From NCBI GenBank assembly GCA_965219085.1, contig OZ244720.1:1888001-1952000 (forward strand): 64,000 nt of DNA. The letters run 5' to 3'. The position numbers and the translations under genes were made by a program. This stretch comes from Dehalococcoidia bacterium. GTDB taxonomy: Bacteria > Chloroflexota > Dehalococcoidia > UBA2979. Position 1 is the first letter of the stretch, and each line of letters opens with the position of its first letter. Below the pieces are notes generated by a model, which made no database searches, was not told the origin of the DNA, and saw only the letters and a program-made list of their open reading frames with translations. Shown piece after piece: positions 18,806-39,100 of the stretch.

Positions 18806-18890
18806 GTTGCGCGGGCTGCGTCCGGCCGATGCGCCACGAGCGCCGGGACGCCTGCCGCATCGTGTAGATGCTGTAATCCGTTTCGTACCA
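18806..18890 (-). pseudogene. Helicase 3' fragment H1 (SF2/SNF2-like motif VI region)
   Basis: WYETDYSIYTMRQASRRSWRIGRTQP. Confidence 0.7.
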
Positions 18891-18912
18891 AACAGGCGCA
18901 GACAGGGAAGCG

Positions 18913-18978
18913 TCAGTTGGCTTGCGGAGTGCCCTCGCTCCGGATGACGAGCGGTGTGATCGAGGGCAAACCTTCGGC
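18913..18978 (-). pseudogene. 3' stub of an eighth giant surface-protein gene
   Basis: Reads AEGLPSITPLVIRSEGTPQAN*, matching the ends of G4 (AEGLPPLTPLVARSDGPAEAN*) and G5 (DGIPPITPLVAKSEGPPEAN*). Confidence 0.8.
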
Positions 18979-18979
18979 T

Positions 18980-19390
18980 GCGCGCCCCCCTCATACGCAC
19001 CCTGCCCGCGCTCCAGCAGCGCCCAGAGCCGCCCGTAGCGGCTCTCCCAGCGCGGCCACCAGCTCCGGCGCCACCTTGCCGCACCGCCTACCGCCTGCGG
19101 CTTGCGCGCCGGTAGTCCACCCGGCGACCGCCGAAGCGCTACGGGGGGTGCATGGCCTCCTCGCTGCGGCAGCGCAGCGTCAACTCGTCCACGCCGATGG
19201 AGGCCATCGCGCGCAGTCCTGCCCAGCGACTCGGCACCGAGTACCAGGCCCCCTCGACCCGCACCTGCACGCCGCGGGTCACCGAAACCGCCCGCAACTG
19301 GCGCGCGTCGACCTCTCCCCGCAGCCATGCCGGGAGCGCGGCGAGTGACTCCCCGCGCGGCACCGGCGTGAGGTGCTGCAGCCGGATTGC
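18980..19390 (-). mobile_element. Degenerate IS21-like (IstA C-terminal) transposase fragment
   Basis: VRVEGAWYSVPSRWAG motif typical of the IstA C-terminal region, plus frameshifted KPQAV.. / QVAPELVAALGE / YGRLWALL pieces. Confidence 0.55.
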
Positions 19391-19392
19391 CC

Positions 19393-21129
19393 TCACGCGG
19401 GGCGGTACTCAAGGAGCGACGACCGGCCAGTGATTGCGGCTACGCGCACGAGCAACCCGTGGCCGTTCGCGTCCGTCAAGCGCAACTCCTCCTCACCCGG
19501 AACGAACCGGACTGGCTGCTGTCGCCCACCGTTGATGGCGATGTTCGAGGCGTAAAGGTACGTCCTGCCGCTCGTGTCGAGGATCGGGTTGAGGCGACCC
19601 GAGAGGCCGGGGATGTGGCCAGTTCCCTCCGGGAACACGATCGATCCGCCGCCTGGGAGCACAACGAGTTCGACTGCAAGCGACCGTTCCGACGGGATCC
19701 AGTCCCGCTCCACATGCGCGGCGCAGCCTTCCGCCGCGACATACACGGTCATCGGCAGGTGCACCGAGTGCAGATCGAGGCGCGCCTCGCCGCCGCCATC
19801 GGTTGAGGCGCGCCTCCACGTGTTGTTCGGGAAGAGCGCGAGCACGTCGGCACCCGCAAGCAACAGTCCGTCCCGGCGAACCGCGATGACGACGCTTGCC
19901 GGTCCGGAGTCGGGCTCGGCGGCCGGCGGCGTGAGAGAGAGCCCGGAGCCATCGATGAGCCGGAACTCCGGCTCCCTGCCGGTTAGTTCGCGTGTCTCGC
20001 GGCGGATGATCGGCACGCCGTCGCCGCGGCGCTCCATGAAGTAGCGTCTGCCCCAGGCACCCTCCACTGAGCCCGCGTCGATGCGGCCGAGCACCGAGGT
20101 CAGCACCCCGTTCCGCGTCGACTGCCGCTCACCCATGCTCTCGATCGTGAGGTTGTTCGGGAGCGAGCCTGGCGAGCAGAGTTCGAGCCGGTCGGAGAAG
20201 ATCGACAGCCTGATGCGGCTCCCGCGGATCGAGTAGTCACGGTGCACCACCGCATTCACGATCGCCTCGAAGAGCGCCTGCGTGCTGTACTCGGGCAGGT
20301 TCTCACGGGCGGGCGCCTTGCGCGCCCCGACGTGCATGTTGTGCACGGCGAAGGCAAGCGCCTGCGTGATCTGGCCGTCGGTCGGCCCCGTGATTTCCTG
20401 CGCGTCGACCTGGCCCGACGCGCGGTCCGCGCCCCGGTAGCGGACGGCGGTGATCACGGCGTTCGGTAGGAACCGCTCCGGGTGAGCCGTGCAGACCAGT
20501 ACACCGGCCACGGTCGCGCGCGTCACGCCATGCTCGTCAGTCGCGAGCAGGCCGAGCTTCTCCAGCGCAACTTCTGGATCAACGAGGCCTTCGGCGCTGA
20601 GGAGCGGCTTCCACAGCTCCTCGTCGAGGGTCGCGAACCCGGTTTCGCCCACTGTCTGCTCGTCGAAGCTGGGGTATCGGACCAGGCCGCGCTGCTGCGC
20701 CAGTCGCACCCGCTCGTCGCGCGTTATCGGCTGCTTCGCACTACCGACGCGGACGTAGCGGCCACTCGGACTGTCGTGCTGCGCGTGTCCTTCGGGGACC
20801 GTGACCAGTAGGAGGGAGCGTCCGTCCAACTCCAGGCGGTACGCCTCCACCCGGATCGCCGGCTTGATGGAGTCCCTCGCGATCTCCCCGACGAGGCGCT
20901 CCACCGCGTCGAGACGCTCGCGGGACATGCCCGGCACATCGCCCGCGTCCGTGACGCCGAAGAGCAGGATACCGCCGCTCGCGTTGGCGAAGGCACCAAC
21001 CTCGTCGGCCCAGTCGTCGCGGTGATCCCGGGCGGGGCGGTCGCCCCGGAACTCGACCTCCTTGAACTCCCACCCACTGTCCTCGCCCTGACGCAGTCGG
21101 CTCCGGATTTCGTCGTCACTGTAGGGCAT
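19393..21129 (-). CDS. Schlafen/AlbA_2 domain + HATPase_c_4-type protein with extra C-terminal beta-rich domain
   Basis: GEDSGWEFKE...VGAFANASGGILLFGVTD (AlbA_2); EAIVNAVVHRDYS...DRLELCSPG...MERRGDG (ATP-binding RecG-C-like); ATG at 21129. Confidence 0.8.
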   Translation of the reverse strand: MPYSDDEIRSRLRQGEDSGWEFKEVEFRGDRPARDHRDDWADEVGAFANASGGILLFGVTDAGDVPGMSRERLDAVERLVGEIARDSIKPAIRVEAYRLELDGRSLLLVTVPEGHAQHDSPSGRYVRVGSAKQPITRDERVRLAQQRGLVRYPSFDEQTVGETGFATLDEELWKPLLSAEGLVDPEVALEKLGLLATDEHGVTRATVAGVLVCTAHPERFLPNAVITAVRYRGADRASGQVDAQEITGPTDGQITQALAFAVHNMHVGARKAPARENLPEYSTQALFEAIVNAVVHRDYSIRGSRIRLSIFSDRLELCSPGSLPNNLTIESMGERQSTRNGVLTSVLGRIDAGSVEGAWGRRYFMERRGDGVPIIRRETRELTGREPEFRLIDGSGLSLTPPAAEPDSGPASVVIAVRRDGLLLAGADVLALFPNNTWRRASTDGGGEARLDLHSVHLPMTVYVAAEGCAAHVERDWIPSERSLAVELVVLPGGGSIVFPEGTGHIPGLSGRLNPILDTSGRTYLYASNIAINGGRQQPVRFVPGEEELRLTDANGHGLLVRVAAITGRSSLLEYRPA

Positions 21130-21344
21130 CGTCGTCGCTGGCTCAGCCTGTTCCGAGGCCACGGCGGTTCCTCATGCCTCCGTGCAGGACTGGACAACCC
21201 CGACATCCCAGCAGGGCCGGTCACCGCCCGTGGTGTAGACGGAGGCGAGAAGCGGCGGATTCGACTGGCGCATGGTCATTTTACTTTGCGCCGAGGAGCC
21301 CCGATCGATCGGCGGGTCGGCGGCGGCGGAGCCTGGCTGACGCG

Positions 21345-21572
21345 GGTCTCGCAACTGGCGCAGCGATCCGCGCCCAACATCCACCCCTGGAACCAGAACG
21401 TCATCTTCTCGATCAACCGCCTGATGAAGGAAATCGACTGGGAGCCAGAGTACACTTTCCGCTCCGCGTCGAGCAGACCTTCGAGTGGTTCATGAACGAG
21501 CGCATGGACAAGACGCTGGAGCTCGACTGCTCGCTCGAGGACCTGCTGCTGGAGCGCATCCGCGGCGGCTAG
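21345..21572 (+). pseudogene. C-terminal remnant of an NAD-dependent epimerase/dehydratase-like gene
   Basis: FSINRLMKEIDWEPEYTF / VEQTFEWFMNE...LEDLLLERIRGG* across a frameshift; no 5' part. Confidence 0.4.
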
Positions 21573-23057: not shown

Positions 23058-23200
23058 TCATGGCAACCTACCACCTAGCCATGAAGATTCAATGGACAAT
23101 ATGTCTCTTTTGGTGGCAGTCTGGTGGCGATTCTCAGGAAACCGTATAATCGGGGCTGGTTGCTACCTAGTCACAAAGACTACGCTCAGTAACCGTTTCG
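23058..23200. promoter_or_regulatory. Conserved divergent promoter P3 (type A) between the DoxX gene and the hybrid kinase
   Basis: Minus strand TTGAAT(23092-23087)-N16-TAGGTT(23070-23065) with TG; TGGTGGC at 23111 and 23122; plus-strand TATAAT 23145-23150. Confidence 0.8.
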
Positions 23201-25658: not shown

Positions 25659-26000
25659 GCCGTTGTTTTCCCACCTTGACGTAAGGGTCGGACAAGATGG
25701 CTGACTCCGACTTGGCCGTCGTCACCGGCGCGCTTCCCGGAGGGAACTTCAGCCGTGAAGTCCCCTCCGAGGGACCATGAGCGCTGCCCCGACTCGCGGT
25801 GCTCGCGGGACACACGTTGCCTACCGAACTGTCCTTCCCACGGACGTTGTTTACACGGGTGAGGCAGGGACAGCCCCGCCGATACCTCCGTGCGGTCGGG
25901 CGGGTAGGCCGGGGGCGAGCCTGCGCCGACGAACGGCACCGGGCTGCACCGTAGTCGGCCGGGGCCCGAGCGCAGAAAACCCCGCACACATTGGCGGGCA

Positions 26001-26036
26001 GGGGGAGGCCACCGCAGGTGCGCGGTGGCCTCCCCC
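26001..26036 (-). terminator. Strong hairpin downstream of helicase fragment H2
   Basis: gggggaggccaccgc-N6-gcggtggcctccccc, 15-bp stem; homologous copy at 35632-35666; no clear U tract. Confidence 0.55.
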
Positions 26037-26053: not shown

Positions 26054-26620
26054 CTAACGCTCCGCGCCGACCAGTTCCCGCTCGCGCTCCCGGTCGAGCG
26101 CCCACTCGAACAGCCAGAGCGTCGGAGCTTCGTCCCGACGGCGCCGCCCGGGCTCGACCTGCTCTTTCGCCATGAACTCCGCCCACGAGAACAGCGACCG
26201 CGGCGGCTCGCCAGCGTCGTCGCGCCGGTCGTCCGCGTCCACCCCGACCGTGACGGTTTCGACGGCCACCGGCTCGGGCTCGGCCCAGCCGTCGTCGATT
26301 AGCAGCGCCTCGGCGTCAGCGGCCACCTGCTGCGCTTGCGTGAAGACCGACTCGACCGAGTCGGCGTCCTCCTCGCCGGAGACGATCCTGCGCGCGAGCG
26401 CGAGCATGAGGTCGTCGCCGTCGTCACCGAGAGCGGCGAGGCCGTCCTCGGGCAGCTCGCCCTCCACCGCCAGCGACGATTGGAGCTTCTTCGCCACGAG
26501 TTTGAGGGCATCCGCCTGGAGGGTGTTCCGGTAGGCCATGAACACGACCTGCACGGGCTGCGTCTGACCGATGCGCACGACCTGCGCGAAGCCTGCCGCA
26601 TCGTGTAGACGGAGTAGTCG
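26054..26620 (-). pseudogene. Helicase 3' fragment H2
   Basis: DYSVYTMRQASRRS (frameshift) RIGQTQPVQVVFMAYRNTLQADALKLVAKKLQSSLAVEGELPEDGL...; no 5' part. Confidence 0.75.
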
Positions 26621-26639
26621 GCCCCGGTAGCGAGAGCGA

Positions 26640-29600
26640 TCAGTTGGCCTCGGCAGGCCCATCGCTCCTCGCGACCAGCGGTGTGAGCGGGGGAAGGCCC
26701 TCGGCGAACAGCTCCTTGAACTCGCGGTTCACTAACTCCGGCGCTCCGAGGATGTAGGAGACCCACACGCCGCCGTGCAGGGCGTAGAGGGCCGTGACCT
26801 GCTGGCTCTCGGCGCACGCCTCCAGTTCCTCGACGCTGCCCCCCTCGTGGATGAGCAGGCTGAAGCCCTCGATGATGTCGCCGCGCAGGCACTCCGGCCC
26901 CGGCAACAGGGCGCCGTCGCCGCGGTTCGGGTCCGCAGATGGCGGCCCGCCGCTCTTGACGGTCAGTGGCGTCACGGGGGGCAGGCCCTCGGCGAACAGC
27001 TCCTTGAACTCGCGGTTCACTAACTCCGGCGCTCCGAGGATGTAGGAGACGTAGACGCCGCCGTGCAGTGCGTAGAGGGCCGCGACATCCCGGCTCTCCG
27101 CGCAGCTGACCAGCTCCTCGACGCTGCCGCCCTCGAAGACGACGAGGCTGAAGCCGACCGCGATGTCGCCACGCAGACAGTGTGTCCACGGCTCGGGTGT
27201 CGATTCCTGTTCGCCTTCGGCGAAGGCCACGCGGTAGGTCTTCGTGCGGCTGCCGTCGGCCGAGGTCACCGTGACGGTAATCTCAGTGACTCCGCTAAGA
27301 GCTATCTGGTGGCCGTCCGCTTCCTCGTCGGCGTCGGGCGGGTTGATGGCGATGTCCGTGCGCCGCTGCATCGCCTCAGCGAGAACGGTCGTCTCCGTCA
27401 CGCCCTCGGCTACGATGCCCTCGTATTCCGGCCGGCCGGGATCGAACTCCCCGAGGTCGACGCCGCTGAGCGTGAGCGAGGCGAGGCGGGCGTCGATCGC
27501 GTCGGGCATGTTGTAGCTGTAGACCTTGTCGTCGCTGGCGTCGGCGACGTACATCACGTCGCCGTCGGACCAGAGGCCGCGCGGGCTGTTGTTGCTGGCC
27601 CGGCTCAATATGGTGTTGGGGAACTCCTCGTCGCGGACGCGCTCGAGCTCCTTGTCGCCCTCGTCCTCCTCGTCCGCGTCCGGCTCCCCGGACAGCACGG
27701 GCAGGCGGTAGGCGAAGAGCCGCTTGGCGCCGTGGTCGGAGACCCAGACCGTGACGCCGTCGGACCAGATGCCGCGCGGGTCGTTGTTGGCTGCGTCGAG
27801 GGCGCACTCGGCGAGCAGCTCGCCGCTCTCCAGGTCGTACACGAAGACGCTGTCCTTGCCGCCGTCGAGCACATACATCCGCTCGCCGTCGGACCAGATG
27901 CCGCGGGCCTGGCGGTTGCGCGCCGCGAGTTCGATGTCGCGCTCCGCGAGGCGCTCGCCGCTCTCGAGGTCGTGGGCGAAGAGCTTGTTCTGGCCGCTGT
28001 CGGAGACCCAGAGGATCTTGATCTTGCCATCCGACCAGACGCCGCGGGGCGCGCGGTTGCGCTCGTCGAGCTCGAACTCACGGTCCTCGATGCGCTCGCC
28101 GCTCTTGAGGTCGTAGGCGTAGATCGCGTCGTCGGCGCCGTCGCCGTTCTCGAGGAGCCAGAGGATGGAGCCGTCGGACCACGAGCCCGTGGGCATGTCG
28201 TGGGTCGAGTCGAGCGACTCGATGTCGTGCTTGACCGTCCACTCGAAGTCGATGGTGCTCGGCGAGGGCCCGCCGCCGCCGCCACCGCCACCGCCGCCAC
28301 CGACGAAGCCGACGACGCCACGGGTCGTGGGAGCAGCGGTCACCGTGATGGTCACCACGATAGTGGCGTCCGAGGTGGTAGACGCGACGTACAAGGCGTT
28401 GAAGCCGTCGTGGACGGACACCGTGAAGGTGTAGCTGTCCTTCTCCGTACTGTCGAGGACGGCCTTCGTGCGGATCTGGCCGGTGGCCGCGTCGATGTCG
28501 AAGGCATTGGCGTCCGCCCCGCCGAGTGAGTAGGTGAGGACGTCACCCGTGTCCACGTCGGTCGCGCGTACGGGCGCGCCGACGCTCCGGCCTGCTGCCG
28601 TGCCTGCAGAAACGGTGCGGGTAGCTGTGGCTTCTGCGAACGTCGGCTTGGTGTTCGCCGCGGGCCTGGCGTCGCCGACAGGCGTCTGCAGCGTGGCGGA
28701 TGCCGTCTTGCCGCTGCCCAGCCTGTCCGTATAGGTGGCGGTCGCCCGCAGGTACTGGTTGGCGTCGGCGTCGGCTTCCATGTAGCTGTACGACGTTGCG
28801 CCCGTGATATCCGTCCAGCTGCTCCTGCCGTTGGGCGACCGCGCCCACTGCCAGGTCGTGCCGCTGATGGAGCCGTCGCCGTCGCTCAGGTCGGCGATGA
28901 ACTGTGTCACGTCGTCCAGCCAGCCCCGGGGCGGGGAGATGGTCACGACACCCTCTTCCTCCTCGTCCGTAACAGTGACGGTCACGGACAGCGAGCCCGG
29001 CTGGGGTTTCGTGGCGTCGTCGTCGATGGCGGAGACAGTCACCGCGTAGGTCGTCTGACCCTCGAAGTTGGGCGGCGTGCGGAAGTAGAGCTCGCCCCGG
29101 CTGGAGATCCAGAAGTCGTTGGAGAATGCCGACCTTGCCGACCATGTGAATTTGTCGCCCTCCGGGTCAGTCGCCCGGTAGCTCGCCACCATGGAGCTTG
29201 AATTCTCCTCGATCGAGGCGGTGCTGGGGCCCGTCACGACCGGCGCCTCGTTGACGTTCGTCACCGTGATGGTCACGTTCTGCGTGTCGTCGATGGCGTC
29301 CATGTCGTCGGCGCCGCTCTCGTCCTTGCCATCGCTGACTTGCACGGTGACGCGGTAGGTCCGCTTGCCCTCGTAGTCGAGTTCCACGCCCGTCGCCACC
29401 CGCAGTTGCCCGTCGCTGTCGATCTCGAACGAAGCGGCGTCCGTCCCAGTCAGGGAGTAGGTCAGCATGTCGCCCTGGTCGGGATCAACCGCCGACACGG
29501 GCGCGCCAACGTTGTCGCCCGCCGGGGTGTCCTCCGGCACGCTGCGCAGTCCGTCCTCCGTCGACAGGAAGGCGGGGTCCAGGTTGGCAACGCCGACGAC

Positions 29601-32600
29601 GTTGGTCACGCCGGTCGCGGAGCGGGCGAGGTTGCCGTTGCCGGCGGCATCCTCGACGGCGTCGGCGCCGAGCGCCACAGTGATGTTCGCGGACGTGCTG
29701 GTCAGGGCCGTCGCCAGGGCGATTTCGAGCCTGGGTCCAGACAGCACCGACCCCACTGGGGTTGCCTGCGTCGTCGTGCCCGACTTCACGGTGATCTTGG
29801 TGCGGTCGACCGTGCCGATAGCTTCGTTGAAAAAGAAGATGATTTTCGTGCCGTCGGCCGACGTCGTCGGCGCATTGGCGCCGGTCGTGACGAGCGTCGG
29901 GCGGACGCCGTCGACCTTGTGATTGGCGTTGATGGCGACCGCGCTGTGGTCGAGGTCGGCGGCGGTCGTGCTGCCGGTGGCCGTGATCGTGCCGCCGGTC
30001 AGCTTGTTCGCCGCGATCGCGATGCCGTTCGGGGCCGAGTCGTTCACCAACACCGTGTAGCTGCAGACCATCGTGGTCGTGGTCGTGCCGGTCGCGCAGC
30101 CGGCCGCTTTCGCGCTCCCGGCAAAGTTCAGCTCGAGCTGCGGGCTGCCGGTGATGTCGACCGCCTCGCTGAAGGTCACCGTCGCCTCGATTACGCCGCC
30201 GATGTTGTAGCCGTAGGTGGCGTTGTTGGGGGCGGAGGTGAGCGCGACGCCGGTCACGGTGGGGGTGACGACGGTGCTGCCGACGTTATTGGTCACGGTT
30301 ACCGCGACGAGGGTGGTGTTGGAGTTGCCGGCGGCGTCGGTGACGGCCTCGGCAGCGACATCTATTTCGAGGCTCGTGGTCGAGTCGGTCAGGGCCGTCG
30401 TCAGTGTGAGTTCGACCGTGCGTCCGGAAAAACTCTCGCCGCTTGTCGAAAACATGTTGCTGGGGGCGTTGGCGTCGTAGATGGTGATATTGGTTCGGTC
30501 GACGCTGCCGATGTCCTCGCTGAACGTCAGGATCACCTTCGCGCCGTCGGTCGACGTCTTCGGCGCATTGGCGCCGGTCGTGACGAGCGTCGGGCGGACG
30601 CCGTCGACCTTGTGGCTGCTGTCGCGCCCGACCGTGCTGTGGTCTAGGACGGCGGCGTTGGTCGTGCTGCCATTGGCATAGATCGTGCCGCTGTTGAGCG
30701 TGAGCTTGTTCGCCCCAATCGCGACGCCGCCCGTCGCCTGGACGCCCGACTCCACCTCGTAGGAGCAGACCATCGTGGTCGTGCCCGTGGCGGACGCGCA
30801 GTCGGCCGTCTTCGTGACGTTCGGGCTGCCGCCCAGGTCAAGTTCAAGCTGAGGTGTGCCCGTAATGTCGACCGACTCGCTGAACGTCACCGTGGCCTGG
30901 ACGGCCTCGCCGATGCCGTAGGGGGCGGTGGTGGAGGTCAGTGCGACGCCGGTGACCGTGGGCGCGGTGGCGCTGACGACGGCGTTGGTCACGGTGGCCG
31001 CGGCGAGGGTGGCATTGTCGTTGCCGGCGGCGTCGCTGACGGCCCCGACCGCGAGCGCCACGGTGAGGCTTGCGGCCGAGTCGGTGAGCGCCGTCGTCAG
31101 CGTCAGTTCGACCGTGGGTCCGGAAATACTCTCGCCGCTCGTCGGCAGGGCGACGCTGTTGCCCTCGATGGTGATCAGACTTCGAGTCACGGTGTCGATG
31201 TCCTCGCTGAACGTCAGGATCACCTTGGTGCCGTCGGTCGACGTCGTCGGCGCATTGGCGCCGGTCGTGACGAGCGTCGGGCGGATGCCGTCGACCTTGT
31301 GATTGGCGTCGATCGCCACCGCGGCGTGGGCGAGGACGGCGGTGATGGTCGTGCTGCCGGTGGCCGTGATGGCGCCGCCGTTGAGCGTGAGCTTGTTCGC
31401 CGCGATCGCGATGCCGCCGGCAGCCACGTCGCCCGCCACCACCTCGTAGTAGCACCCCATCCAGTTCTGGTTCGTGGCGGCCACGCAATCTACCGCTTTC
31501 GGGGTGCCGGCAAAGTCCAGCTCCAGCTGCGGGGTACCGGTGATGTCCACCGCCGCGCTGAAGTTCACCGTCGTCTCGACAATGTCGTCGATGGCGTAGA
31601 CGTTGCCGGTGGGGTTGGAGGTGAACTCGACCGACGAGACGGTCGGGGGCGGGCCCTGGACCGGGCCAACCTCGCTGCTGTAGCGGGGGTACTCCTGGTT
31701 GCCGGCGTCGTCGTCGAAGATGACTCGGACCTTGAGGTTCTTGCCGACGTCGTCGGCGGTCGGGGTGTAGCTCGAACCGGTCTCGCCGGCAAGCTCGGTC
31801 TCGTCGGCGCCGTCCACCCGGATCCACTGGTAGAGGTACAAGACGTTGTCGAGTCCGTCGGTGGAGTCCGTGATCCCGGAGATATCGGCCGTCAGTTCGA
31901 TGTCCTGCTGAGCAGTGGCACCGAGAGTCGGGACGCCGATTGCGGGGGTGTTGTCCGGCTGGGCGCCCGGCAGGTCGTAGGCGTAGAGCTGGAGGTCGCT
32001 GGTGTCGACCACCCAGAGCACGCGGCCGTCGAACCAGAGGCCCTCTGCGTCAGTGTTGTCGGTGTCCAGGGAGAGGTTCTTGGCGTCGTCCCGGGTCCGG
32101 TCGGCCAGCTGGTAGGCGTAGATCTTGTCGTCCACGTGGTCTGCAACGAAGAGCGTCGTGCTGTTGGACCACATGCCGCTCGGGCGGTGGTTGTTGATGG
32201 TGCCGTCGGTGTTGCTCGGACTCAGCGTGCCGGCGCCGATGTCCAAGGTGGAGGCATGGCTTCCGTCGGAGCGCAGATAGACGAAGATTTTGCTGGTGAG
32301 GTGGTCATTGGTGTCGTCCGCCACCCAGAGGTGGGCGCTGTCGCACGACAGGCCATGGGCGCTACCGTTGTCGGCGTCCAGGGCGACGTCCTTGCTGGAG
32401 TCCCGGGTCGTATCGGACATCTTGTAGGCGTAGACCTTGTTGTCGCCGCTGTCGGCGACGAACATGGTGGTTCCATCCGAACAGATTCCGCGCGCGTCGT
32501 TGTTGCCGGCAGTGTTCAGGTTGTCGAAATCACTGCCGGTATCGCGCAACCCGTCGGAACGATTGTAGGCATAGAGCTTGTCGGCGGCGACGGAGCCGGT

Positions 32601-35351
32601 GCCGTCGTTGGCGACCCAGAAGGTGTCGTCGTTGCCCCAGATGCCCTTGGCTGCCGAGTTGGAGTTGTGGAAGTCGAAGCCGGTGACGCGTTTCAGTGGA
32701 GTGATGGCATTGCCGTACACCGCGATCTCCAACGAATTGCCGCCGGAATCCACGGCCAGGTTGGCAAGGTTTGCGCCCCGATAGAACACGTCCGCGATGC
32801 TGAAGCCTGCAAACGCGCCCGCATCCTCGCCGTTGCTCGAGGTTTGCTGCAGCCGGTGCGCGGCGCCGCCGAGATGGCTCCAGACCACCACGTATGAGGT
32901 GTTGGCCGCCAGCGTCGTTCCGGCCGGCGCCTCGAAGAAGCTGTGGCCCGGCGCGTATTCGGTGGGACTGAGGAAGTCGAACAGCTTGGCGGCCGGCTTG
33001 CCGTCCGCATCGGCGCTGTACACCGCCACCGACACGGATGTCGCATCGTCAGGCACCTGGGCGACGCCGCCCACGCTGTCGGAGCCTTCGATGTTGACGC
33101 CGATGCCCTGCAGCTCGTAGCCGGCCGCGTTGGGGCTGGTCGTGAAGCCCTGCGTCACCACTGAATTAGCAGTGCCGACGGTCAAGAAGCTGTTGTCGGC
33201 TTGCCCCAGGTTCTGCACCATCGCGTGGAGCGGCTCGCCGAGGACGGCCATGAACGGTATGTCGTGAGGACCAATACTCGCATCTCCAGGTCCGTCGAAG
33301 AGGGTCACGCCCGGTGCCGTCGGCGCGTCGTTGCCAGCGGGGTCGATGCCCCACGTGCGCGTAAGGATGGAGTCTACTCTCGTAAATGAGCCGCGAGCAT
33401 CCTGCCCGAAGAAGTATGATGCGCTTCCTTCCACGGTTGCGCCTTGCGGAGCCGTCCAGCCATTTAGGCCCGCATTGTTACGTATCTTGTGCAGGGTGAA
33501 CCGCTTGGTGCCCAGGGCACCGGAGCTTTCGTTCCACAGGTCCATCGGGTTGCCCATGCCGCCGTATTCTGATGTTGCGTTGTCCGAGAGCCAGGAAAAA
33601 CCGCGGATGAGGTAGCGATCCGCTGCTCCGACAGTGATCCCGACAGTCCATAAGTCGCCAAGCGAGATGATTTCCTGGTCATTGTCGAAGGATTGGGCGT
33701 AGGTCGCAGCCAGGATGCCGCTGTCCCGCCTCGAGCCCTCGAGGAGCAGGCGCAGCACGCTGCTGTCCCCGCCCGCGCTGTTGAAGAGGATGGCTCCCGT
33801 CTCACCGCCCGCATCTTCATTGTCGGACGTCGTCTCCTTGATCGACAGCGAGGAGCCGAAACCCGACAGCACGATGAAGTGATTGACATTTTGGTACGCG
33901 AATGCCCCTGCGGGAGCCGTGAACTTGTTCAGGCCGGCCTGGAAGGAGCTCGGGTTCTCAAAGTCGAACAGCTTGTATGCCCTGGTCTCGCCGTGAGTGA
34001 GCTCAGGATGGCCGGCGATCCACAGGGAGACGGTCAGGCTCGACGGCGCCGCGGCCAGGTCGATCGAGACGCTCGAGATTTCGTAGCCCTGGCCGTGAGT
34101 CCCCAACCTGAAGCCCATGGCGTACTGCCCCGTGATCATCGCCGTGGCCGACGGCGACTGGCCGGTGTTGCCTACCAGCGTCGACGGGGTCTGCGACGGG
34201 CCGGCCGGTTGGGCGAGCGGGCCGAACGGCAGGCTGGTCACCGTCTCCGAGTTGCCGCCCCCGTCCTCGAACGAGACTTGCACCTTGATCAGGTTGCCGA
34301 TATCGGCGTCGACAGGCTGGTAGCTGGGTGAGTCGACGCCGATATTGGTCTCGGTCGAGGTATCGCCGTCGATCCGGATCCACTGGTACGACCAGTCGAC
34401 TCGGATGAGGGGGCCAGGCACCGTGGGGAACCCGTTCCCGTCGGCGATGCCCGAAGTGTCGGCCACCAGGATGCCGGCGCTTTCCGCGGAACGAAGGACT
34501 CTCGGCGCGCCGGTGGCGTCCTGGTTCGTGGGCGTTTCATAGCCCTTGACGGTGATCTGGATAGCCTCGTTGCCCCCGCTCTTCTGCTGCCAGGCGCCGC
34601 TGCTCTTCAAGTCGAACTTGTCCTTGATGCTCCAGCCCGTGAGGCCGGTCGCATCTTCTCCTGCGGCGGTGGTGGAATCGAGCGTGACGCTGCCGCTGTC
34701 CTGCTTGATCACCACCACGTAGTTGGTGTTCGCATCGAGGAGAATGCCCGGGTGCGTGAACTCCAGGCTCCCGGCCGGAAAGGCCTGCGGCGTCGTCAGG
34801 ACCGTGCAGGTGGTGGTCGGAAAGTCGTCCGAGGTGCCATCCGCCTCGCAGACCTCGACGTCGAAGCCGTCGCCCTCGGCGTCCTCGGAGACGACGATCA
34901 CGCTGGTCAGCGTGTAGCCGTTCGTCGCCCCGCCCGTGCCGAACAGCTGCGCATGCTCGTTGCCACTGGTCTCGACTTGGTCATCGTTCCCTTGCGCTGT
35001 GTTGCTCACGAGAATGCGCGCGGTTTGCGCCTCCGCCGGCGTTGACCAGAGGAGCACGCCGCCCAGCACCAGCGTCAGCGCCAGCAGGGCAAACCTGGCG
35101 GCGCGCCGGAATGGGGCGCGGCGCGGCGGGGCGACGGCGCGTGGCCCGGCGTGGGGCTGCGCTGCCCGCGGGATCCACGGCAGGGCCGCTTTCGCTCGGC
35201 GGAGGGCGATCACGACGTTACCCCACGGCCTGCCAATAACAAAATGGGGGGGGGGGGGGTACGTATGTGCTAGGTTGCCCTGCACGGCAGACGCCAGCGC
35301 GACGGCAGGGGCCGTCGTCTCAGGTGCATGGACTGGTCTGTCAAGCGTCAC
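26640..35351 (-). CDS. G4: giant surface protein (Ig-like, propeller, SwmB-like, cadherin, conserved C-terminal module)
   Basis: ~2900-aa ORF. Start is either GTG 35351 (GGAGG-N7, reads through C14) or GTG 35213. Signal FALLALTLVLGGVLLWSTPAEA; cadherin motifs (LDYE, TNVNEAP); poly-Gly linker. Confidence 0.9.
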   Translation of the reverse strand: MTLDRPVHAPETTAPAVALASAVQGNLAHTYPPPPHFVIGRPWGNVVIALRRAKAALPWIPRAAQPHAGPRAVAPPRRAPFRRAARFALLALTLVLGGVLLWSTPAEAQTARILVSNTAQGNDDQVETSGNEHAQLFGTGGATNGYTLTSVIVVSEDAEGDGFDVEVCEADGTSDDFPTTTCTVLTTPQAFPAGSLEFTHPGILLDANTNYVVVIKQDSGSVTLDSTTAAGEDATGLTGWSIKDKFDLKSSGAWQQKSGGNEAIQITVKGYETPTNQDATGAPRVLRSAESAGILVADTSGIADGNGFPTVPGPLIRVDWSYQWIRIDGDTSTETNIGVDSPSYQPVDADIGNLIKVQVSFEDGGGNSETVTSLPFGPLAQPAGPSQTPSTLVGNTGQSPSATAMITGQYAMGFRLGTHGQGYEISSVSIDLAAAPSSLTVSLWIAGHPELTHGETRAYKLFDFENPSSFQAGLNKFTAPAGAFAYQNVNHFIVLSGFGSSLSIKETTSDNEDAGGETGAILFNSAGGDSSVLRLLLEGSRRDSGILAATYAQSFDNDQEIISLGDLWTVGITVGAADRYLIRGFSWLSDNATSEYGGMGNPMDLWNESSGALGTKRFTLHKIRNNAGLNGWTAPQGATVEGSASYFFGQDARGSFTRVDSILTRTWGIDPAGNDAPTAPGVTLFDGPGDASIGPHDIPFMAVLGEPLHAMVQNLGQADNSFLTVGTANSVVTQGFTTSPNAAGYELQGIGVNIEGSDSVGGVAQVPDDATSVSVAVYSADADGKPAAKLFDFLSPTEYAPGHSFFEAPAGTTLAANTSYVVVWSHLGGAAHRLQQTSSNGEDAGAFAGFSIADVFYRGANLANLAVDSGGNSLEIAVYGNAITPLKRVTGFDFHNSNSAAKGIWGNDDTFWVANDGTGSVAADKLYAYNRSDGLRDTGSDFDNLNTAGNNDARGICSDGTTMFVADSGDNKVYAYKMSDTTRDSSKDVALDADNGSAHGLSCDSAHLWVADDTNDHLTSKIFVYLRSDGSHASTLDIGAGTLSPSNTDGTINNHRPSGMWSNSTTLFVADHVDDKIYAYQLADRTRDDAKNLSLDTDNTDAEGLWFDGRVLWVVDTSDLQLYAYDLPGAQPDNTPAIGVPTLGATAQQDIELTADISGITDSTDGLDNVLYLYQWIRVDGADETELAGETGSSYTPTADDVGKNLKVRVIFDDDAGNQEYPRYSSEVGPVQGPPPTVSSVEFTSNPTGNVYAIDDIVETTVNFSAAVDITGTPQLELDFAGTPKAVDCVAATNQNWMGCYYEVVAGDVAAGGIAIAANKLTLNGGAITATGSTTITAVLAHAAVAIDANHKVDGIRPTLVTTGANAPTTSTDGTKVILTFSEDIDTVTRSLITIEGNSVALPTSGESISGPTVELTLTTALTDSAASLTVALAVGAVSDAAGNDNATLAAATVTNAVVSATAPTVTGVALTSTTAPYGIGEAVQATVTFSESVDITGTPQLELDLGGSPNVTKTADCASATGTTTMVCSYEVESGVQATGGVAIGANKLTLNSGTIYANGSTTNAAVLDHSTVGRDSSHKVDGVRPTLVTTGANAPKTSTDGAKVILTFSEDIGSVDRTNITIYDANAPSNMFSTSGESFSGRTVELTLTTALTDSTTSLEIDVAAEAVTDAAGNSNTTLVAVTVTNNVGSTVVTPTVTGVALTSAPNNATYGYNIGGVIEATVTFSEAVDITGSPQLELNFAGSAKAAGCATGTTTTTMVCSYTVLVNDSAPNGIAIAANKLTGGTITATGSTTAADLDHSAVAINANHKVDGVRPTLVTTGANAPTTSADGTKIIFFFNEAIGTVDRTKITVKSGTTTQATPVGSVLSGPRLEIALATALTSTSANITVALGADAVEDAAGNGNLARSATGVTNVVGVANLDPAFLSTEDGLRSVPEDTPAGDNVGAPVSAVDPDQGDMLTYSLTGTDAASFEIDSDGQLRVATGVELDYEGKRTYRVTVQVSDGKDESGADDMDAIDDTQNVTITVTNVNEAPVVTGPSTASIEENSSSMVASYRATDPEGDKFTWSARSAFSNDFWISSRGELYFRTPPNFEGQTTYAVTVSAIDDDATKPQPGSLSVTVTVTDEEEEGVVTISPPRGWLDDVTQFIADLSDGDGSISGTTWQWARSPNGRSSWTDITGATSYSYMEADADANQYLRATATYTDRLGSGKTASATLQTPVGDARPAANTKPTFAEATATRTVSAGTAAGRSVGAPVRATDVDTGDVLTYSLGGADANAFDIDAATGQIRTKAVLDSTEKDSYTFTVSVHDGFNALYVASTTSDATIVVTITVTAAPTTRGVVGFVGGGGGGGGGGGPSPSTIDFEWTVKHDIESLDSTHDMPTGSWSDGSILWLLENGDGADDAIYAYDLKSGERIEDREFELDERNRAPRGVWSDGKIKILWVSDSGQNKLFAHDLESGERLAERDIELAARNRQARGIWSDGERMYVLDGGKDSVFVYDLESGELLAECALDAANNDPRGIWSDGVTVWVSDHGAKRLFAYRLPVLSGEPDADEEDEGDKELERVRDEEFPNTILSRASNNSPRGLWSDGDVMYVADASDDKVYSYNMPDAIDARLASLTLSGVDLGEFDPGRPEYEGIVAEGVTETTVLAEAMQRRTDIAINPPDADEEADGHQIALSGVTEITVTVTSADGSRTKTYRVAFAEGEQESTPEPWTHCLRGDIAVGFSLVVFEGGSVEELVSCAESRDVAALYALHGGVYVSYILGAPELVNREFKELFAEGLPPVTPLTVKSGGPPSADPNRGDGALLPGPECLRGDIIEGFSLLIHEGGSVEELEACAESQQVTALYALHGGVWVSYILGAPELVNREFKELFAEGLPPLTPLVARSDGPAEAN
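35246..35259. repeat. G14 homopolymer in G4 leader / N-terminal extension
   Basis: aaaat-G14-tacgta. Confidence 0.9.
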
Positions 35352-35535
35352 GCAAATGCCTCCCGGCAGCACGGGATCCAATCCCATGGCAACGTACCAT
35401 CTTGTGGTGAACGTTCAGTGGACAATAGGCCCAATACGATGACAGTCCAGTGGTAATTCTCAGGGAAAAGCTACGGAAGTAGCAAAAGACCCATTCGCGT
35501 GAGTTTGCGCTCTTATTGTGATTCTAACGTGAGGA
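35310..35535. promoter_or_regulatory. Conserved promoter/leader element P4 (type B)
   Basis: Minus strand CTGAAC-N16-TACGTT with TG; leader gtctcaggtgcatggactggtctgtc shared with P1/P5; direct repeats degenerate. Confidence 0.75.
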
Positions 35536-35631
35536 TCTACTTCATTCTGTCGGGGAAGCCGTTCAGAGTGCCGCCCTACCGGACGCTGCGCGGCGTTTAA
35601 ACGCAAAAGGCCCGCACACATGGACCGGGAC

Positions 35632-35666
35632 GGGGAGGCCACCGCACCAGATGCGGTGGCCTCCCC
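35632..35666 (-). terminator. Hairpin downstream of helicase fragment H3
   Basis: ggggaggccaccgca-N5-tgcggtggcctcccc. Confidence 0.55.
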
Positions 35667-35680
35667 CTCTTGCTTCCGGC

Positions 35681-36144
35681 CTAGCCTCCCACGCCGGCCG
35701 GCTCCGCCTCCCGCTCCAGCGCCCACTCGAAGAGGGAGATGGACGCGGGCTCGGGCCTGCGACTGCGGCGCTTCGGCTTCACCGGCTCGGGCGCGGCCCA
35801 CTCGGCGTCGACTAGCAGCGCCTCGGCCTCCGCCGCGACCTGCTGCGCCTGGGCGAACACCGACTCGACCGAGTCCGCGTCCTCCTCGCCGGCGACGATC
35901 TTCCTCGCCAGTGCGAGCATGAGGTCGTCGCCGTCGTCGCCGTAGGCGGCGAGGCCATCCTCGGGCAGTTCCCCCTCCACCGCCAGCGACGATTGGAGCT
36001 TCTTCGCCACCAGCTTGAGGGCGTCCGCCTGGAGGGTGTTCCGGTAGGCCATGAACACGACCGCACGGGCTGCGTCTGACCGATGCGCCACGACCTGCGC
36101 GAGGCCTGCCGCGTGGTGTAGACGGAGTAGTCGGTCTCGAACCG
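35681..36144 (-). pseudogene. Helicase 3' fragment H3
   Basis: RFETDYSVYTTRQASRRSWRIGQTQPV (frameshift) VVFMAYRNTLQADALKLVAKKLQSSLAVEG... Confidence 0.75.
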
Positions 36145-36166
36145 AACAGGCGCAGCCAGGGAAGAG

Positions 36167-39100
36167 TCAGTTGGCTTCCGGAGGTCCCTCGCTCTTGGCG
36201 ACCAGTGGCGTGATGGGTGGAATGCCGTCCGGGGACAGTTCGCGGAAGGGCTGATTCGCGAACTCCGGTGCGCCGAGGATGTAGGAGACCCACTCCCCGT
36301 CCGCGAGGGCATAGACGGCCGTGACGCGTCGGCTCTCCGCGCAGGCGACCAGCTCCTCGACGCTGCCTCCCTCGTAGACGACGAGGCTGAAGCCCTCGAC
36401 GGCGGCGCCGCGCAGGCACTCGGGCCACGGCTGCGGCCCAGCGGCGTCAAGGTGATCCCCGAACGGGTCTGGCGAGGGAGGTCCGTTGCCGCCGGCGACC
36501 AGCGGCGTCATGACCGGGAGCCCGTCGGCGAACAGCTCAGTGAACTCGCGGTTGACGAAGTTGGGCGCACCGAGGATGTAGGAGACGTAGACGCCCTCGT
36601 GGAGAACGTAGAGGGCTACGACGTGCCGGCTCTGTGCGCAGGCGGCCAGCTCCTCGACGCTCCCGCCCTCGTAGACGACGAGGCTGAAGCCCTCGGCGAC
36701 TTCGCCGCGCAGGCAGTGGGTCCAGGGCTCGGGGGTCGACTGCTCAGCCTCGCCGAAGGCCACGCGGTAGGTCTTCGTGCGGCTGCCATCGGCCGAGGTC
36801 ACGGTGACGGTGATCTCGCCGAGGCCCGGGAGGGCAATCTGGTGGCCGTCCGCCTTCTCGCCGGCGTCGGGCGGGTCGATCACGACGCCGGCGCCGGACT
36901 GCACCGCCGCGGCCTCGACCGTCGTCTCCGCCACGCCCTCGGCGGCGACCCCCGTGTATTCAGTCTCTCGAGGTGAGAACTCCCCGATCTCGATGTCGCT
37001 CATCGTCAGCGTAGCGAGACGGGCGTCGATCGCGTCGGGCATGTTGTAGCTGTAGACCTTGTCGTCGCTGGCGTCGGCGACGTACATCACGTCGCCGTCG
37101 GACCAGAGGCCGCGCGGGCTGTTGTTGCTGGCCCGGCTCAATATGGTGTTGGGGAACTCCTCGTCGCGGACGCGCTCGAGCTCCTTGTCGCCCTCGTCCT
37201 CCTCGTCCGCGTCCGGCTCCCCGGACAGCACGGGCAGGCGGTAGGCGAAGAGCCGCTTGGCGCCGTGGTCGGAGACCCAGACCGTGACGCCGTCGGACCA
37301 GATGCCGCGCGGGTCGTTGTTGGCTGCGTCGAGGGCGCACTCGGCGAGCAGCTCGCCGCTCTCCAGGTCGTACACGAAGACGCTGTCCTTGCCGCCGTCG
37401 AGCACCCACATCGTCTCGCCGTCGGACCAGATGCCGCGGGCGGCACGGTTGCGCGCCGCGAGTTCGATGTCGCGCTCCGCGAGGCGCTCGCCGCTCTCGA
37501 GGTCGTGGGCGAAGAGCTTGTTCTGGCCGCTGTCGGAGACCCAGAGGATCTTGATCTTGCCATCCGACCAGACGCCGCGGGGCGCGCGGTTGCGCTCGTC
37601 GAGCTCGAACTCACGGTCCTCGACGCGCTCGCCGCTCTTGAGGTCGTAGGCGTAGATGGCGTCGTCGGCGCCCGAGCCGTTCTCGAGGAGCCAGAGGATG
37701 GAGCCATTGGACCAGGAGCCGGTGGGCGAGTCGTGGCTCGAGTCGAGCGACTCGATGTCGCGCTTGACGGTCCACTCGAAGTCGACCTCGCTCGGGGTCG
37801 GGCCTGTGGGGCCGCCACCCCCACCCGGACCGATCGGGCCGATGATGATCGGTGGCCTGCTCGGCCTGGTCGTCACCGTGATGGTCACGTCGATGCTCGC
37901 CGTGGCACCTTCGGTGTCGCGCGCCTCGACCGTGACGGCGTACTCGGACGTCGTAGCGGCGTCGAACGTGACCCCCGTGCCGACCGTGATCTGGCCGTCG
38001 GCGTCGATGACGAACGAAAACACGTCGGGGCCCGAGAGGCTGTACGCGAGCGTGTCGTTCTCGTCGACATCCGTCGCCGTCACGGGCGCGCCGACGTGAT
38101 CGCCGGCCTCCGCGCTCTCCGGCACGCTGCGGGTCGCGGCCTGCGACGCGAACGCGGGCGCGTCGTTCACTGGGTCCACCTCCACGGAGACGGTGGCGAT
38201 GTTCGAGAGTGACGGGCTGCCGGTGTCCCGGGCCCGGTAGGTGAACGTGTCCGCGCCGTGGTAGTCGGCGTTGGGCTCGTAGGTAATCGTGCGGCGATCG
38301 CCCGCACTCGCGGGTTCATTCACGCTCGCGCGTCCGTTGAGCGGCGGGGTGACCACCGTCAGCAGCAACTCGCTCGGGTCCTGCTCGGGGTCGCTGTCGT
38401 TGGCGAGGACGTCGATGGTGATCTCGGTGTCCTCGTCGAAACTGCCGGGGGCATCGGCGACGGCGTCCGGCGGCTCGTTCACGTCCGTGACCGTGATCGT
38501 GACCTCGACGGTGTCGAACGCATTGGAGCTGTCGCTGGCCTTGACGGTGACCGTGTGCGAGGGCGCCGTCTCGTGGTCGAGCGATGCTGCCTCCTTCACC
38601 CGGATCTGGCCACTGGCGCCGTCGATCGTGAACAGATCCGATGCGGGCTCGAGCTCGTACCCCACCGTGTTGCCCGGGTCGGGATCGCTGGCGGTGACGC
38701 GTTCCCCGACCGGGGCATCCGCCCGTGCGTTCTCGGCGATGCTGCGGGTCGGGTTCGCCTCCGTGAACGTCGGCGGGTTGTTGACGACGGGGGCTGCCAG
38801 GACCGAGTTGGTGGACACGGCGACGAGGCTCTTGTTCGGCCCGTGGCCGTCGGTGTATGCGGCGGTCGCGCGCAGGTAGTAGCCGATATCTCCCGCGACG
38901 GGCGTGTAGACGCTCGTCGTGGTGCTGTCGGCGGCCCCGGTGACGGCCGTCCAGGGGCCGCCGCGGCTTGTCGAGCGCTCCCACGTCCACGCCGTCGACC
39001 GCACGCCGTCGGGGTCGCCGAGGGTGGCGGTGTAGTCCGCCTCGGCCTGCGGCCGCGTTGCGGGCAGCGCGAGCATCCCGGGCTCTTCCCTGTTCGTGAC

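What the first reader, a model, noticed from the sequence alone, without database searches (positions are those of the whole stretch)
18806..36190. Three giant-gene 3' ends fused to different helicase alleles at nearly the same motif: site-specific cassette insertion?
Seen: after the ...AN* stop, a short spacer leads directly into a helicase at (W)(Y/F)ETDYS(V/I)YT.RQASRRSWRIG. In H1 and H3 the 22-nt spacers differ at only 2 sites (cgcttccctgtctgcgcctgtt vs ctcttccctggctgcgcctgtt) and join at the same nucleotide. The adjoining helicase codons differ mostly synonymously (gaa/gag, acg/acc, gat/gac, agc/tcc, gcg/gcc, cgc/agg), implying divergence while still functional. H2 joins about 10 nt further in. 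Inference: repeated independent insertion of giant-gene cassettes with a fixed right end into a conserved helicase site (probably on an ICE/plasmid), or att-like 3' fragments left by tandem integration. No recombinase is visible in the window.
Basis: partly seen in the sequence, partly recalled or inferred. Interest (0 to 1): 0.8.

Follow-up and report, generated by a model that had tools for sequence, protein, structure and literature searches.

The report
Integrase docking sites behind giant genes
The helicase pieces that follow three giant surface-protein genes are leftovers of a conjugative element's helicase that still hold the docking site of a serine-integrase mobile element; they look like one old module copied along with the giant genes, not three separate insertions.

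Summary
Three giant-gene 3' ends (one only a 65-nt remnant) run through a short flank into frameshifted 3' fragments of one helicase. In H1 and H3 the helicase part starts at the same nucleotide (W560). In H2 it starts 12 nt further in.

The motif is not arbitrary. In this 3.3-Mb Dehalococcoidia genome, WYETDYS holds the attB (core GA, codon D564) of a large-serine-recombinase element. Five helicase 5' halves end at that GA and join one conserved arm. Two 3' halves are preceded by the recombinase gene. One complete 26.6-kb copy carries a relaxase-like gene and a 4531-aa giant gene. The only intact helicase sits in a conjugative element.

H1 and H3 begin 12 nt 5' of the core, so they keep a whole attB.

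The same junction and flank occur in five other species of the genus. H2 and H3 share a 2-kb block across the junction. So this is one old fusion spread by duplication, not repeated insertion.

The fragments nevertheless differ like functional alleles (dN/dS 0.08-0.18), which suggests overwriting by incoming helicases.

The closest known system is the streptococcal IME_SNF2. I rate it a new variant of a known kind. How the junction first formed is unresolved.

The parts
36167..47050 (-). Giant gene A (3627 aa). Its C-terminal domain ends ...EAN, with stop at 36167-36169.
   Evidence: ORF list; sequence.
36145..36166 (-).
   Evidence: Homologous flanks follow giant-gene stops elsewhere in this genome and in 5 other species.
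36121..36144 (-). H3 complete attB-like site: left arm 36133-36144, core GA 36131-36132, right arm from 36130.
   Evidence: 22 of 24 nt match the site rebuilt from the attL and attR flanks of the 26.6-kb element and the intact helicases of two relatives.
35681..36144 (-). H3 helicase 3' fragment (codons 560-682 and 729-750 of the 760-aa helicase, to its stop). It has a 1-nt deletion near 36062.
   Evidence: tblastn and blastn against the intact helicase; dN/dS 0.08 against the intact gene.
35609..35667 (-). Two hairpins after the helicase stop: a 15-bp GC stem at 35632-35667, and a stem plus T tract at 35609-35626. This is the helicase gene's own terminator region, now placed behind giant gene A.
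   Evidence: Terminator scan. The same region is conserved after helicases of relatives.
35388..35608 (-). Conserved leader upstream of giant gene B.
   Evidence: Alignment of six leaders with invariant blocks.
26640..35387 (-). Giant gene B (2915 aa; cadherin, cadherin-like and Big_9 domains in its last 1000 aa).
26620..26639 (-). H2 flank. It is the second variant of the giant-gene 3' flank, and the left attB arm has been deleted.
   Evidence: Compare with the flanks of relatives in L097-L101 and the sequence.
26054..26619 (-). H2 helicase 3' fragment, from the core GA (26618-26619; codon 564) to the stop. It has a 1-nt deletion near 26576.
   Evidence: dN/dS 0.11 against the intact gene.
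25981..26036 (-). Hairpins after the H2 fragment: 26001-26036, and 25981-25998 plus a T tract.
   Evidence: Sequence; terminator scan for the second hairpin.
26267..28292 (-). 2-kb block shared with 35780-37825 (85.6% identity over 2053 columns). It runs unbroken from the giant-gene 3' part through the flank into the helicase fragment.
   Evidence: Window self-blast.
18913..18977 (-). H1 remnant of a giant-gene 3' end (last ~21 codons plus stop).
18891..18912 (-). H1 22-nt flank (20 of 22 nt identical to the H3 flank).
18807..18890 (-). H1 helicase fragment, codons 560-587. The attB-like site has its left arm at 18879-18890 and core GA at 18877-18878. The first 21 nt are identical to the intact helicase of this genome.
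18577..18806 (-). Leader of giant gene C (12256-18576). It is joined to the cut helicase fragment at a short stretch that is similar in the helicase and in the longer leaders.
   Evidence: Alignment.
19142..19381 (-). Remnant of a Mu/IS21-type transposase C-terminus, next to the H1 stub.
   Evidence: Pfam Mu-transpos_C_2, E 1.6e-6.

Best explanation
H1, H2 and H3 are copies of one composite module. The module is: the 3' end of a giant adhesin-like gene, its ~22-nt 3' flank, and the last quarter of a conjugative element's helicase gene with that gene's terminators.

Shown:
- The helicase part begins 12 nt upstream of the crossover dinucleotide (GA in codon D564 of WYETDYS). A family of large-serine-recombinase mobilizable elements uses this dinucleotide to insert into that helicase.
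- H1 and H3 therefore keep a whole attB. H2 has lost the left arm.

Inferred:
- The fusion arose once, before the species of this genus split. The likeliest route is a tandem duplication whose ends lay at W560 of a helicase and just past the stop of the giant gene downstream of it.
- It was then copied together with the giant genes, as the unit [helicase 3' part - terminators - leader - giant gene - flank].
- The helicase parts of the window's copies were later overwritten by functional helicase alleles brought in by conjugative elements. This would happen by homologous recombination, or by flank exchange through elements docked at the attB. That would explain why they differ mostly at synonymous sites and carry only one frameshift each.
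- What the module does today is also inferred. It supplies the terminator of the giant gene. It offers a docking site that the integrase can still use, and this genome holds one such occupied site.
For: 1. The site is a serine-recombinase att site.
- Five of the five helicase 5' fragments that reach the region stop at the same GA. All continue into one conserved ~45-nt arm (genome 783750, 1861098, 1866833, 2616813, 3111278).
- Two 3' fragments start at that GA directly after a 526-aa protein with Resolvase, Recombinase and Zn_ribbon_recom domains.
- The two element arms form an imperfect inverted repeat (8 of 11).
- Joining the flanks of the 26.6-kb copy restores the sequence found in intact helicases of two relatives.
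- In 17 of 80 fetched loci of recombinase relatives (62-93% identity across the 80), the same helicase 3' part follows the recombinase directly. The element arm is conserved in these.

2. The element carries giant genes and a Replic_Relax protein. The intact helicase lies in a ~27-kb region with TraG/VirB4-like ATPase, coupling protein, Replic_Relax, its own serine recombinase, primase, SSB and RadC.

3. One old junction.
- The same flank plus helicase start follows giant-gene stops in G004, G012, G013, G015 and G017 (7 loci).
- H2 is explained by the second flank variant seen there plus a ~17-nt deletion.
- A 2-kb block at 85.6% identity spans the junction in H2 and H3.
- The helicase-to-leader junction is the same at three loci.
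- H2 and H3 pair in the tree, with support 80/89.

4. Allele turnover.
- dN/dS over codons 567-679 is 0.08 (H3) and 0.11 (H2) against the intact gene, and 0.18 for H2 against H3. Intact-to-intact pairs give 0.08-0.17.
- Old copies of the module in relatives give 0.34-0.96.
- The H1 and H3 flanks are 20 of 22 identical, but the adjoining 84 nt of helicase only 64 of 84.
- Neighbouring giant-gene blocks show dS from 0.026 to 0.62, a sign of gene conversion.

5. The attB is usable. At genome 865909-865969 a giant-gene stop, flank and left arm are joined at GA to a diverged copy of the element arm.
Against: - The tree of 27 fragments is poorly resolved (4 of 24 inner branches starred). The eight module copies do not form one clade: the tree needs 5 changes. 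One origin is merely not excluded.
- Single origin rests on the shared flank and junction, not on the helicase tree.
- The donor alleles for the proposed overwriting are not in this genome. H3 is at dS 0.35-0.53 from every other copy.
- H1's left arm is the helicase-type allele. Five other copies in this genome carry a lineage-specific C before the core. So H1 needs a conversion tract that runs exactly to the edge of homology, or a separate origin.
- The nearness of the junction to the attB core (12 nt in a 2280-nt gene) is left as unexplained or as selection. Other truncated fragments also start within about 26 codons of the core (about 556, 578, 582). That hints at a site-linked mechanism which I cannot name.
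- Only 2 of 19 genomes of the genus hold a copy with an intact-looking attB under my strict pattern. Only 1 of 19 holds an occupied one. Use as a docking site is therefore rare.
- Conservation across species could also come from horizontal spread of the module.
Confidence: 0.6

Rival explanations
1. Repeated site-specific capture, which is the reader's main idea in sharper form. In this view the giant gene with its flank is the right end of a non-autonomous element moved in trans by the serine recombinase. Its element arm mimics the helicase's left arm. Each of H1 to H3 is then an attR from a separate integration into a different helicase allele, and the rest of each conjugative element was lost later.
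For: - The fragments stem from different functional alleles (dN/dS 0.08-0.18).
- The junction is at the same nucleotide in two alleles.
- The half-sites recognised by such integrases resemble each other. Here the element arm next to the recombinase gene is itself similar to the helicase's left arm over about 30 nt.
- Five of six copies in this genome have a C before the core that none of 13 helicase copies has.
- There are more attL-type joints (5) than recombinase-linked attR joints (2) in the genome.
Against: - In all 17 recombinase loci that have a helicase joint, the element arm is of the ...CCGGAGCC type, never the type seen in H1 and H3.
- H1's 12-nt arm is identical to the helicase allele of this genome.
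- The window holds no helicase 5' half, no conserved element arm and no conjugation genes.
- H2 and H3 share a contiguous 2-kb block, and the downstream leader junction is shared too.
- The attL-type joints near the window (1861098, 1866833) lie on the wrong side to pair with H1-H3.
Confidence: 0.17
2. Plain tandem or segmental duplication of a dead junction, with no functional or mechanistic link to the integrase site. The nearness to the attB would be chance, and the low dN/dS would be inherited from divergence of the parent alleles.
For: The units are shared as blocks. Copies in relatives decay (dN/dS up to 0.96, many indels). H2 has lost its left arm, and H1 is cut after 28 codons.
Against: - H2 against H3 gives dN/dS 0.18 at dS 0.30. 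That is not expected if both descend from one dead copy.
- Several independent fragment starts cluster within about 26 codons of the core.
- One module attB is occupied by an element arm.
Confidence: 0.15
3. Independent decay of separate conjugative elements that each inserted upstream of a giant gene. In this view, separate deletions happened to end near W560.
For: The helicase is the last gene at one end of the conjugative element. The terminator region after the fragments is the helicase's own.
Against: The flank and breakpoint are identical in many copies and species. The leader is not found within about 1.2 kb downstream of any of the 7 helicase loci of relatives that were examined.
Confidence: 0.05

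Closest known systems
IME_SNF2 of streptococci. These are integrative mobilizable elements with serine integrases that insert into the snf2 methylase/helicase gene of Tn5252-type conjugative elements (Coluzzi et al. 2017, PMC5357655; Libante et al. 2019, PMC7168690). I read passages found with the term 'snf2', not the supplements.
   Same: - A large serine integrase.
- The target is the helicase gene next to or fused with a methylase on a conjugative element.
- All insertions are at one position.
[quoted passage not shown] This is reported for one streptococcal element, and here the ORF reads across the joint.
- A relaxase-like mobilization gene is present.
- Truncated target genes remain as 'signatures' in decayed elements.
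   Different: - The phylum is Chloroflexota (Dehalococcoidia).
- The cargo is a 4531-aa subtilase-cadherin-fn3 giant gene and a DUF4011 helicase, not resistance genes.
- The special point is that target-gene 3' remnants with a whole attB are fused to the 3' ends of chromosomal giant genes, multiplied with them and conserved across species.
- No sequence relationship to the streptococcal integrases or targets was tested.
Gene-interrupting serine-integrase elements such as the B. subtilis skin element in sigK or prophages in comK/spsM. This comparison is recalled, not searched.
   Same: Conservative insertion inside a coding sequence at a 2-bp core. The gene is restorable on excision.
   Different: Here the target is itself on a mobile element. 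In addition, extra copies of the target's 3' part persist elsewhere in the chromosome.
Integron or other cassette platforms.
   Same: Arrays of similarly flanked genes, each followed by a recombination site. That is the impression that prompted the finding.
   Different: - No integrase with an adjacent primary site heads the array.
- The sites are attB-type, not cassette-borne attC.
- The unit borders are shared by descent.
- Only one occupied site was found.

Membership tests
Large serine recombinase (integrase) | Resolvase catalytic domain plus Recombinase domain plus zinc-ribbon domain in one ~500-aa protein | tested here: met
   Pfam on P0001: PF00239 E 1.5e-24, PF07508 E 2e-18, PF13408 E 2.3e-9.
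Large serine recombinase (integrase) | Conservative crossover at a 2-bp core without target duplication; the element site has inverted-repeat arms | tested here: met
   Five attL-type and two attR-type joints lie at one GA. The flanks of the 26.6-kb copy rejoin to the sequence of intact helicases. The arms match 8 of 11 as an inverted repeat.
Large serine recombinase (integrase) | Catalytic activity, with excision and integration observed | not testable with these tools
   Only short metagenome contigs could be laid. No joint at the cores appeared among the 15 joints listed (350 more were not shown).
Integrative mobilizable element of the IME_SNF2 kind | Own integrase; inserted in the helicase gene of a conjugative element; always at the same position | tested here: met
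   Context of the intact helicase. In 17 of 80 loci of relatives the same helicase part follows the recombinase.
Integrative mobilizable element of the IME_SNF2 kind | Mobilization function (relaxase and/or oriT) without a full transfer apparatus | tested here: inconclusive
   A 688-aa protein has Replic_Relax (E 9e-9), and no type IV secretion genes appear among the ORFs of the 26.6-kb copy. oriT and transfer were not tested.
Integrative conjugative element (host of the intact helicase) | Type IV secretion ATPase, coupling protein, relaxase-type protein and integrase in one block | tested here: met
   TraG P-loop/AAA_10/TraC, TrwB_AAD_bind, Replic_Relax, and Resolvase+Recombinase+Zn ribbon. 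The element's ends were not determined.
Functional attB (claim for H1 and H3) | Sequence of both arms and the core as in used sites | tested here: met
   H1 has 21 of 21 nt identical to the intact helicase of this genome around the core. H3 has 22 of 24 against the rebuilt site. H2 lacks the left arm, so it does not meet this feature.
Functional attB (claim for H1 and H3) | Actual use by the integrase | tested here: inconclusive
   There is one occupied module site in this genome (865909-865969) with a diverged element arm. No such site was found in 18 other genomes of the genus with that pattern. H1 and H3 themselves are empty.
Integron-like cassette array | Integrase with an adjacent primary site heading an array of cassettes that each carry their own site | tested here: not met
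   The window holds no recombinase. The unit borders are shared by descent.

The most novel reading that the evidence does not exclude
The attB-bearing helicase stubs are kept behind giant adhesin genes as working landing pads and homology handles. Serine-integrase elements bringing new giant genes would dock right behind resident ones. The shared leader and helicase stub would then let whole giant-gene units be duplicated, swapped or lost by recombination. This would be a dedicated system for building and varying arrays of giant surface proteins in these Dehalococcoidia, with conjugative-element helicases continually refreshing the pads.
Probability: 0.15. Interest if true: 0.8.

Novelty: new variant of a known kind. 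Interest (0 to 1): 0.55.

Why it matters
- It shows a nested mobile system in uncultured Dehalococcoidia: an integrase element inside the helicase of a conjugative element. Systems of this kind are described so far mainly in streptococci.
- It links that system to the spread of giant cadherin/fn3 surface-protein genes. Papers listed discuss such domains in sponge symbionts, but I read none of them.
- It gives a concrete, testable recombination site. The arms and core are defined from seven joints.
- It explains why giant genes in these genomes are trailed by helicase debris.
- If the pads are used, they would be a route by which very large adhesin genes are gained and shuffled.
- For annotation, the helicase-frame ORFs left in H2 (within ORF 26054-26662) and H3 (35681-36091) are best treated as pseudogene pieces, not as small helicase genes.

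Tried and rejected
- H2 as an attR with the element arm. Its ...ACCGGGGCC before the core looked like the element arm. The flanks of relatives (L097-L101) show it is the second flank variant with the left arm deleted.
- The junction as a wrong-orientation joint with the element's other arm. The last 7 nt before the core match that arm, but the helicase allele matches 10 of 11 (12 of 12 in H1). An ~85-nt deletion would also be needed. Rejected.
- The conjugative element integrating into the stubs with its own recombinase. This predicts a module joint at the element's far end. There I find a glutamyl-tRNA-synthetase-like gene and no helicase piece. Rejected for this copy.
- The leader as part of the conjugative element. 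It was not found downstream of the 7 helicase loci of relatives that were examined.
- Rfam on the window: 0 matches at gathering score.
- Public runs. Eight runs from four studies hold part of the stretch, and all are kept as short contigs. Contigs of X3, X4 and X7 cover the H3 junction (36033-36299 or 36033-36225) without differences, but these may come from the source sample. None of the 15 joints listed lies at an att core (350 more were not shown). So this gives no evidence either way on excision or on copy-number variants. One of the runs with a small share is labelled sponge metagenome. I draw no habitat claim from it.
- The tree of 27 fragments could not settle one origin against several.
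- Literature on giant genes in sponge-associated Dehalococcoidia: one search (listing only), nothing specific read.
- I ran no literature search for helicase stubs behind giant genes, so I make no claim that they are not in print. (streptococcal IMEs) and one search were my only two searches. The supplementary tables of PMC5357655 and PMC7168690, which list the elements and sites, could not be opened and may bear on how similar the sites are.

Full report
**What is there**

The window (G000:C1:1888001-1952000; 3.3-Mb single contig, about 68% G+C) holds seven very long minus-strand ORFs.

- After the stop of ORF 36167-47050 comes a 22-nt flank, then DNA that reads R-F-E-T-D-Y-S-V-Y-T-T-R-Q-A-S-R-R-S-W-R-I-G-Q. 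It runs on, with one 1-nt deletion, to a stop at 35681.
- After ORF 26640-35387 comes a 20-nt flank, then D-Y-S-V-Y-T-M-R-Q..., running to 26054 with one 1-nt deletion.
- At 18913-18977 only the last ~21 codons of such a gene survive. They are followed by a 22-nt flank and 84 nt of the same helicase. That piece is cut off and joined to the leader of the next giant gene.
- The H1 and H3 flanks differ at 2 of 22 positions. Helicase homology starts at the same base in both, and 12 nt further in for H2.

**The helicase and its host**

tblastn with the fragment led to one intact 760-aa helicase at genome 719398-721677 (Helicase_C and ResIII). In it, WYETDYS is residues 560-566.

It follows a DUF6094/N6 methyltransferase gene and sits at one end of a ~27-kb block. 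That block holds RadC, two SSB genes, a CHC2/Toprim primase, a TraG-P-loop/AAA_10 ATPase, a TrwB-type coupling protein, a Replic_Relax protein and its own large serine recombinase. This is an integrative conjugative element by gene content. Its ends were not mapped.

**The motif is an integrase site**

- All five helicase 5' fragments elsewhere in the genome that reach this region stop at the same GA, the first two bases of codon D564. They continue into one conserved arm of about 45 nt.
- Two 3' fragments begin at that GA and are directly preceded by a 526-aa large serine recombinase whose reading frame crosses the joint.
- The two element arms are an imperfect inverted repeat (8 of 11).
- For the pair at 2616813 and 2590190, the two helicase halves rejoin to exactly the sequence seen in intact helicases of two relatives.
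- Between that pair lie 26.6 kb. They carry the recombinase, a DUF4011/AAA_11/AAA_12 helicase, a Replic_Relax protein, an fn3 protein and a 4531-aa giant gene (subtilase, P-domain, 7 cadherin, 5 fn3, Big_9). The giant gene's 3' end points at the element arm.
- Record titles of recombinase relatives name Dehalococcoidia, Tepidiformaceae and Chloroflexi metagenome genomes.
- In 17 of 80 fetched loci the same helicase 3' part follows the recombinase directly, and the element arm is conserved.
- The other 63 loci showed no helicase piece directly after the recombinase at E 1e-5. Two of them (L029, L038) hold helicase pieces elsewhere in the locus. The nine of these whose recombinase ends were printed have other right flanks.

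**How H1-H3 relate to that site**

Their helicase part starts 12 nt upstream of the core. They are therefore not crossover joints.

- H1 carries the complete site. Its first 21 nt are identical to the intact helicase.
- H3 also carries the complete site, with 22 of 24 nt matching the rebuilt site.
- H2 lacks the left arm.

At genome 865909-865969 a giant-gene stop, flank and left arm are joined at GA to a diverged copy of the element arm. So a site of this kind has been used at least once. No second case was found in 18 other genomes of the genus with that pattern.

**One origin or several**

Evidence for one origin:

- The flank exists in two homologous variants. Both occur behind giant-gene stops in five other species of the genus, followed by the helicase from the same place (7 loci). 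A sixth genome of another genus has a different junction.
- H2 is the second flank variant with a ~17-nt deletion.
- In this genome, 9 of 16 giant-gene stops of this type have helicase-like DNA within 500 nt. Three more keep only a short remnant of the site (read by eye). One is followed by the recombinase gene and one by the element arm. Two have neither.
- H2 and H3 share a 2053-column block at 85.6% identity that runs across the junction.
- The junction between the helicase terminator region and the giant-gene leader is the same at three loci.
- No helicase 5' half ends at W560.

Evidence that complicates this:

- Over codons 567-679, H3 and H2 differ from the intact gene with dN/dS 0.08 and 0.11. 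They differ from each other with 0.18 (dS 0.30). Intact genes of different species give 0.08-0.17.
- Old copies of the module in relatives give 0.34-0.52 against the intact gene and up to 0.96 among themselves.
- H1 resembles intact alleles (72-73 of 84 nt) more than it resembles H3 (64 of 84), although the flanks are 20 of 22 identical.
- The giant-gene 3' parts are mosaics, with dS 0.026 to 0.62 in adjoining 110-codon blocks.

My conclusion is that the junction is old and copied. The helicase part of the window's copies has been replaced by sequence from functional helicases.

The tree of 27 fragments neither proves nor excludes one origin.

**What remains unexplained**

- I cannot say why the breakpoint lies 12 nt from the core.
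- Other truncated copies also start within about 26 codons of it.
- The donors of the replacing alleles are unknown.

A tandem duplication with ends at W560 and just past the giant-gene stop would create exactly one new junction and the repeating unit that is seen. That step is inference.

**Function today (inferred)**

The helicase gene's two hairpins, one with a T tract, now lie behind giant genes A and B. H1 and H3 offer an empty integrase site.

**Comparison with known systems**

The closest described system is the streptococcal IME_SNF2. Those are serine-integrase mobilizable elements that insert at one position in the snf2 methylase/helicase gene of Tn5252-type conjugative elements. In one case the site lies inside the integrase gene, and truncated snf2 genes are left as signatures (passages of PMC5357655 and PMC7168690).

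What differs here:

- the phylum;
- giant adhesin-like cargo;
- multiplication and cross-species retention of target-gene stubs, with a whole site, behind chromosomal giant genes.

**Verdict**

This is a new variant of a known kind, with interest 0.55.

Noticed in passing
window 35388-35608, 18577-18806, 47051-47440; also genome 357690-358070 and 317090-317480: A conserved leader of about 250 nt lies upstream of the giant genes. It has invariant blocks (for example ACTCACGC and CCGTAGC) and a small hairpin. There is no Rfam match. It could be a shared promoter or 5' UTR element.
   Followed up: partly
window 26643-28292 vs 36170-37825: The 3' 550 codons of giant genes A and B are mosaics. dS is 0.026 in one 110-codon block and 0.50-0.62 in the last two. 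This suggests recent gene conversion between paralogues.
   Followed up: partly
window 19142-19381 (-): A remnant of a Mu/IS21-type transposase C-terminus, with in-frame stops downstream, sits where the giant gene of H1 has been lost. Similar sequence recurs elsewhere in the genome (seen).
   Followed up: partly
window 19393-21162 (-): A 589-aa protein with Schlafen AlbA_2 and HATPase_c_4 domains lies just upstream of the H1 stub.
   Followed up: no
window 54697-60540 (-): This giant gene shares about 1.6 kb of its 3' part with genes A and B (71-80% identity). It ends in a different tail and has no helicase stub behind it.
   Followed up: no
window about 23059-23141: An isolated 83-nt match (72% identity) to the giant-gene leader lies in a stretch without a giant gene.
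   Followed up: no
L001 7799-9222 (genome 721.8-723.2 kb): In the copy next to the intact helicase, the methyltransferase gene reads in two frames: the N-terminal part is in one frame and the ...EITDIAA end is in another. Next to the split helicase at 2618610-2619680 it is one ORF. This is either a frameshift or an assembly error.
   Followed up: partly
genome 594985 and 628075 (+), outside the window: Giant genes with a different C-terminal tail (...SDGP) are followed at once by the reverse complement of the helicase around residues 470-490. This is a second, convergent kind of giant-gene/helicase junction.
   Followed up: no
genome 298306/3105823 and 309593/3093137, outside the window: There are two inverted near-identical copies of further junction types. 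In one, a giant stop is joined to the helicase at about codon 580. In the other, an inverted giant-gene piece is joined at about codon 578. This implies a large inverted duplication in the genome.
   Followed up: no
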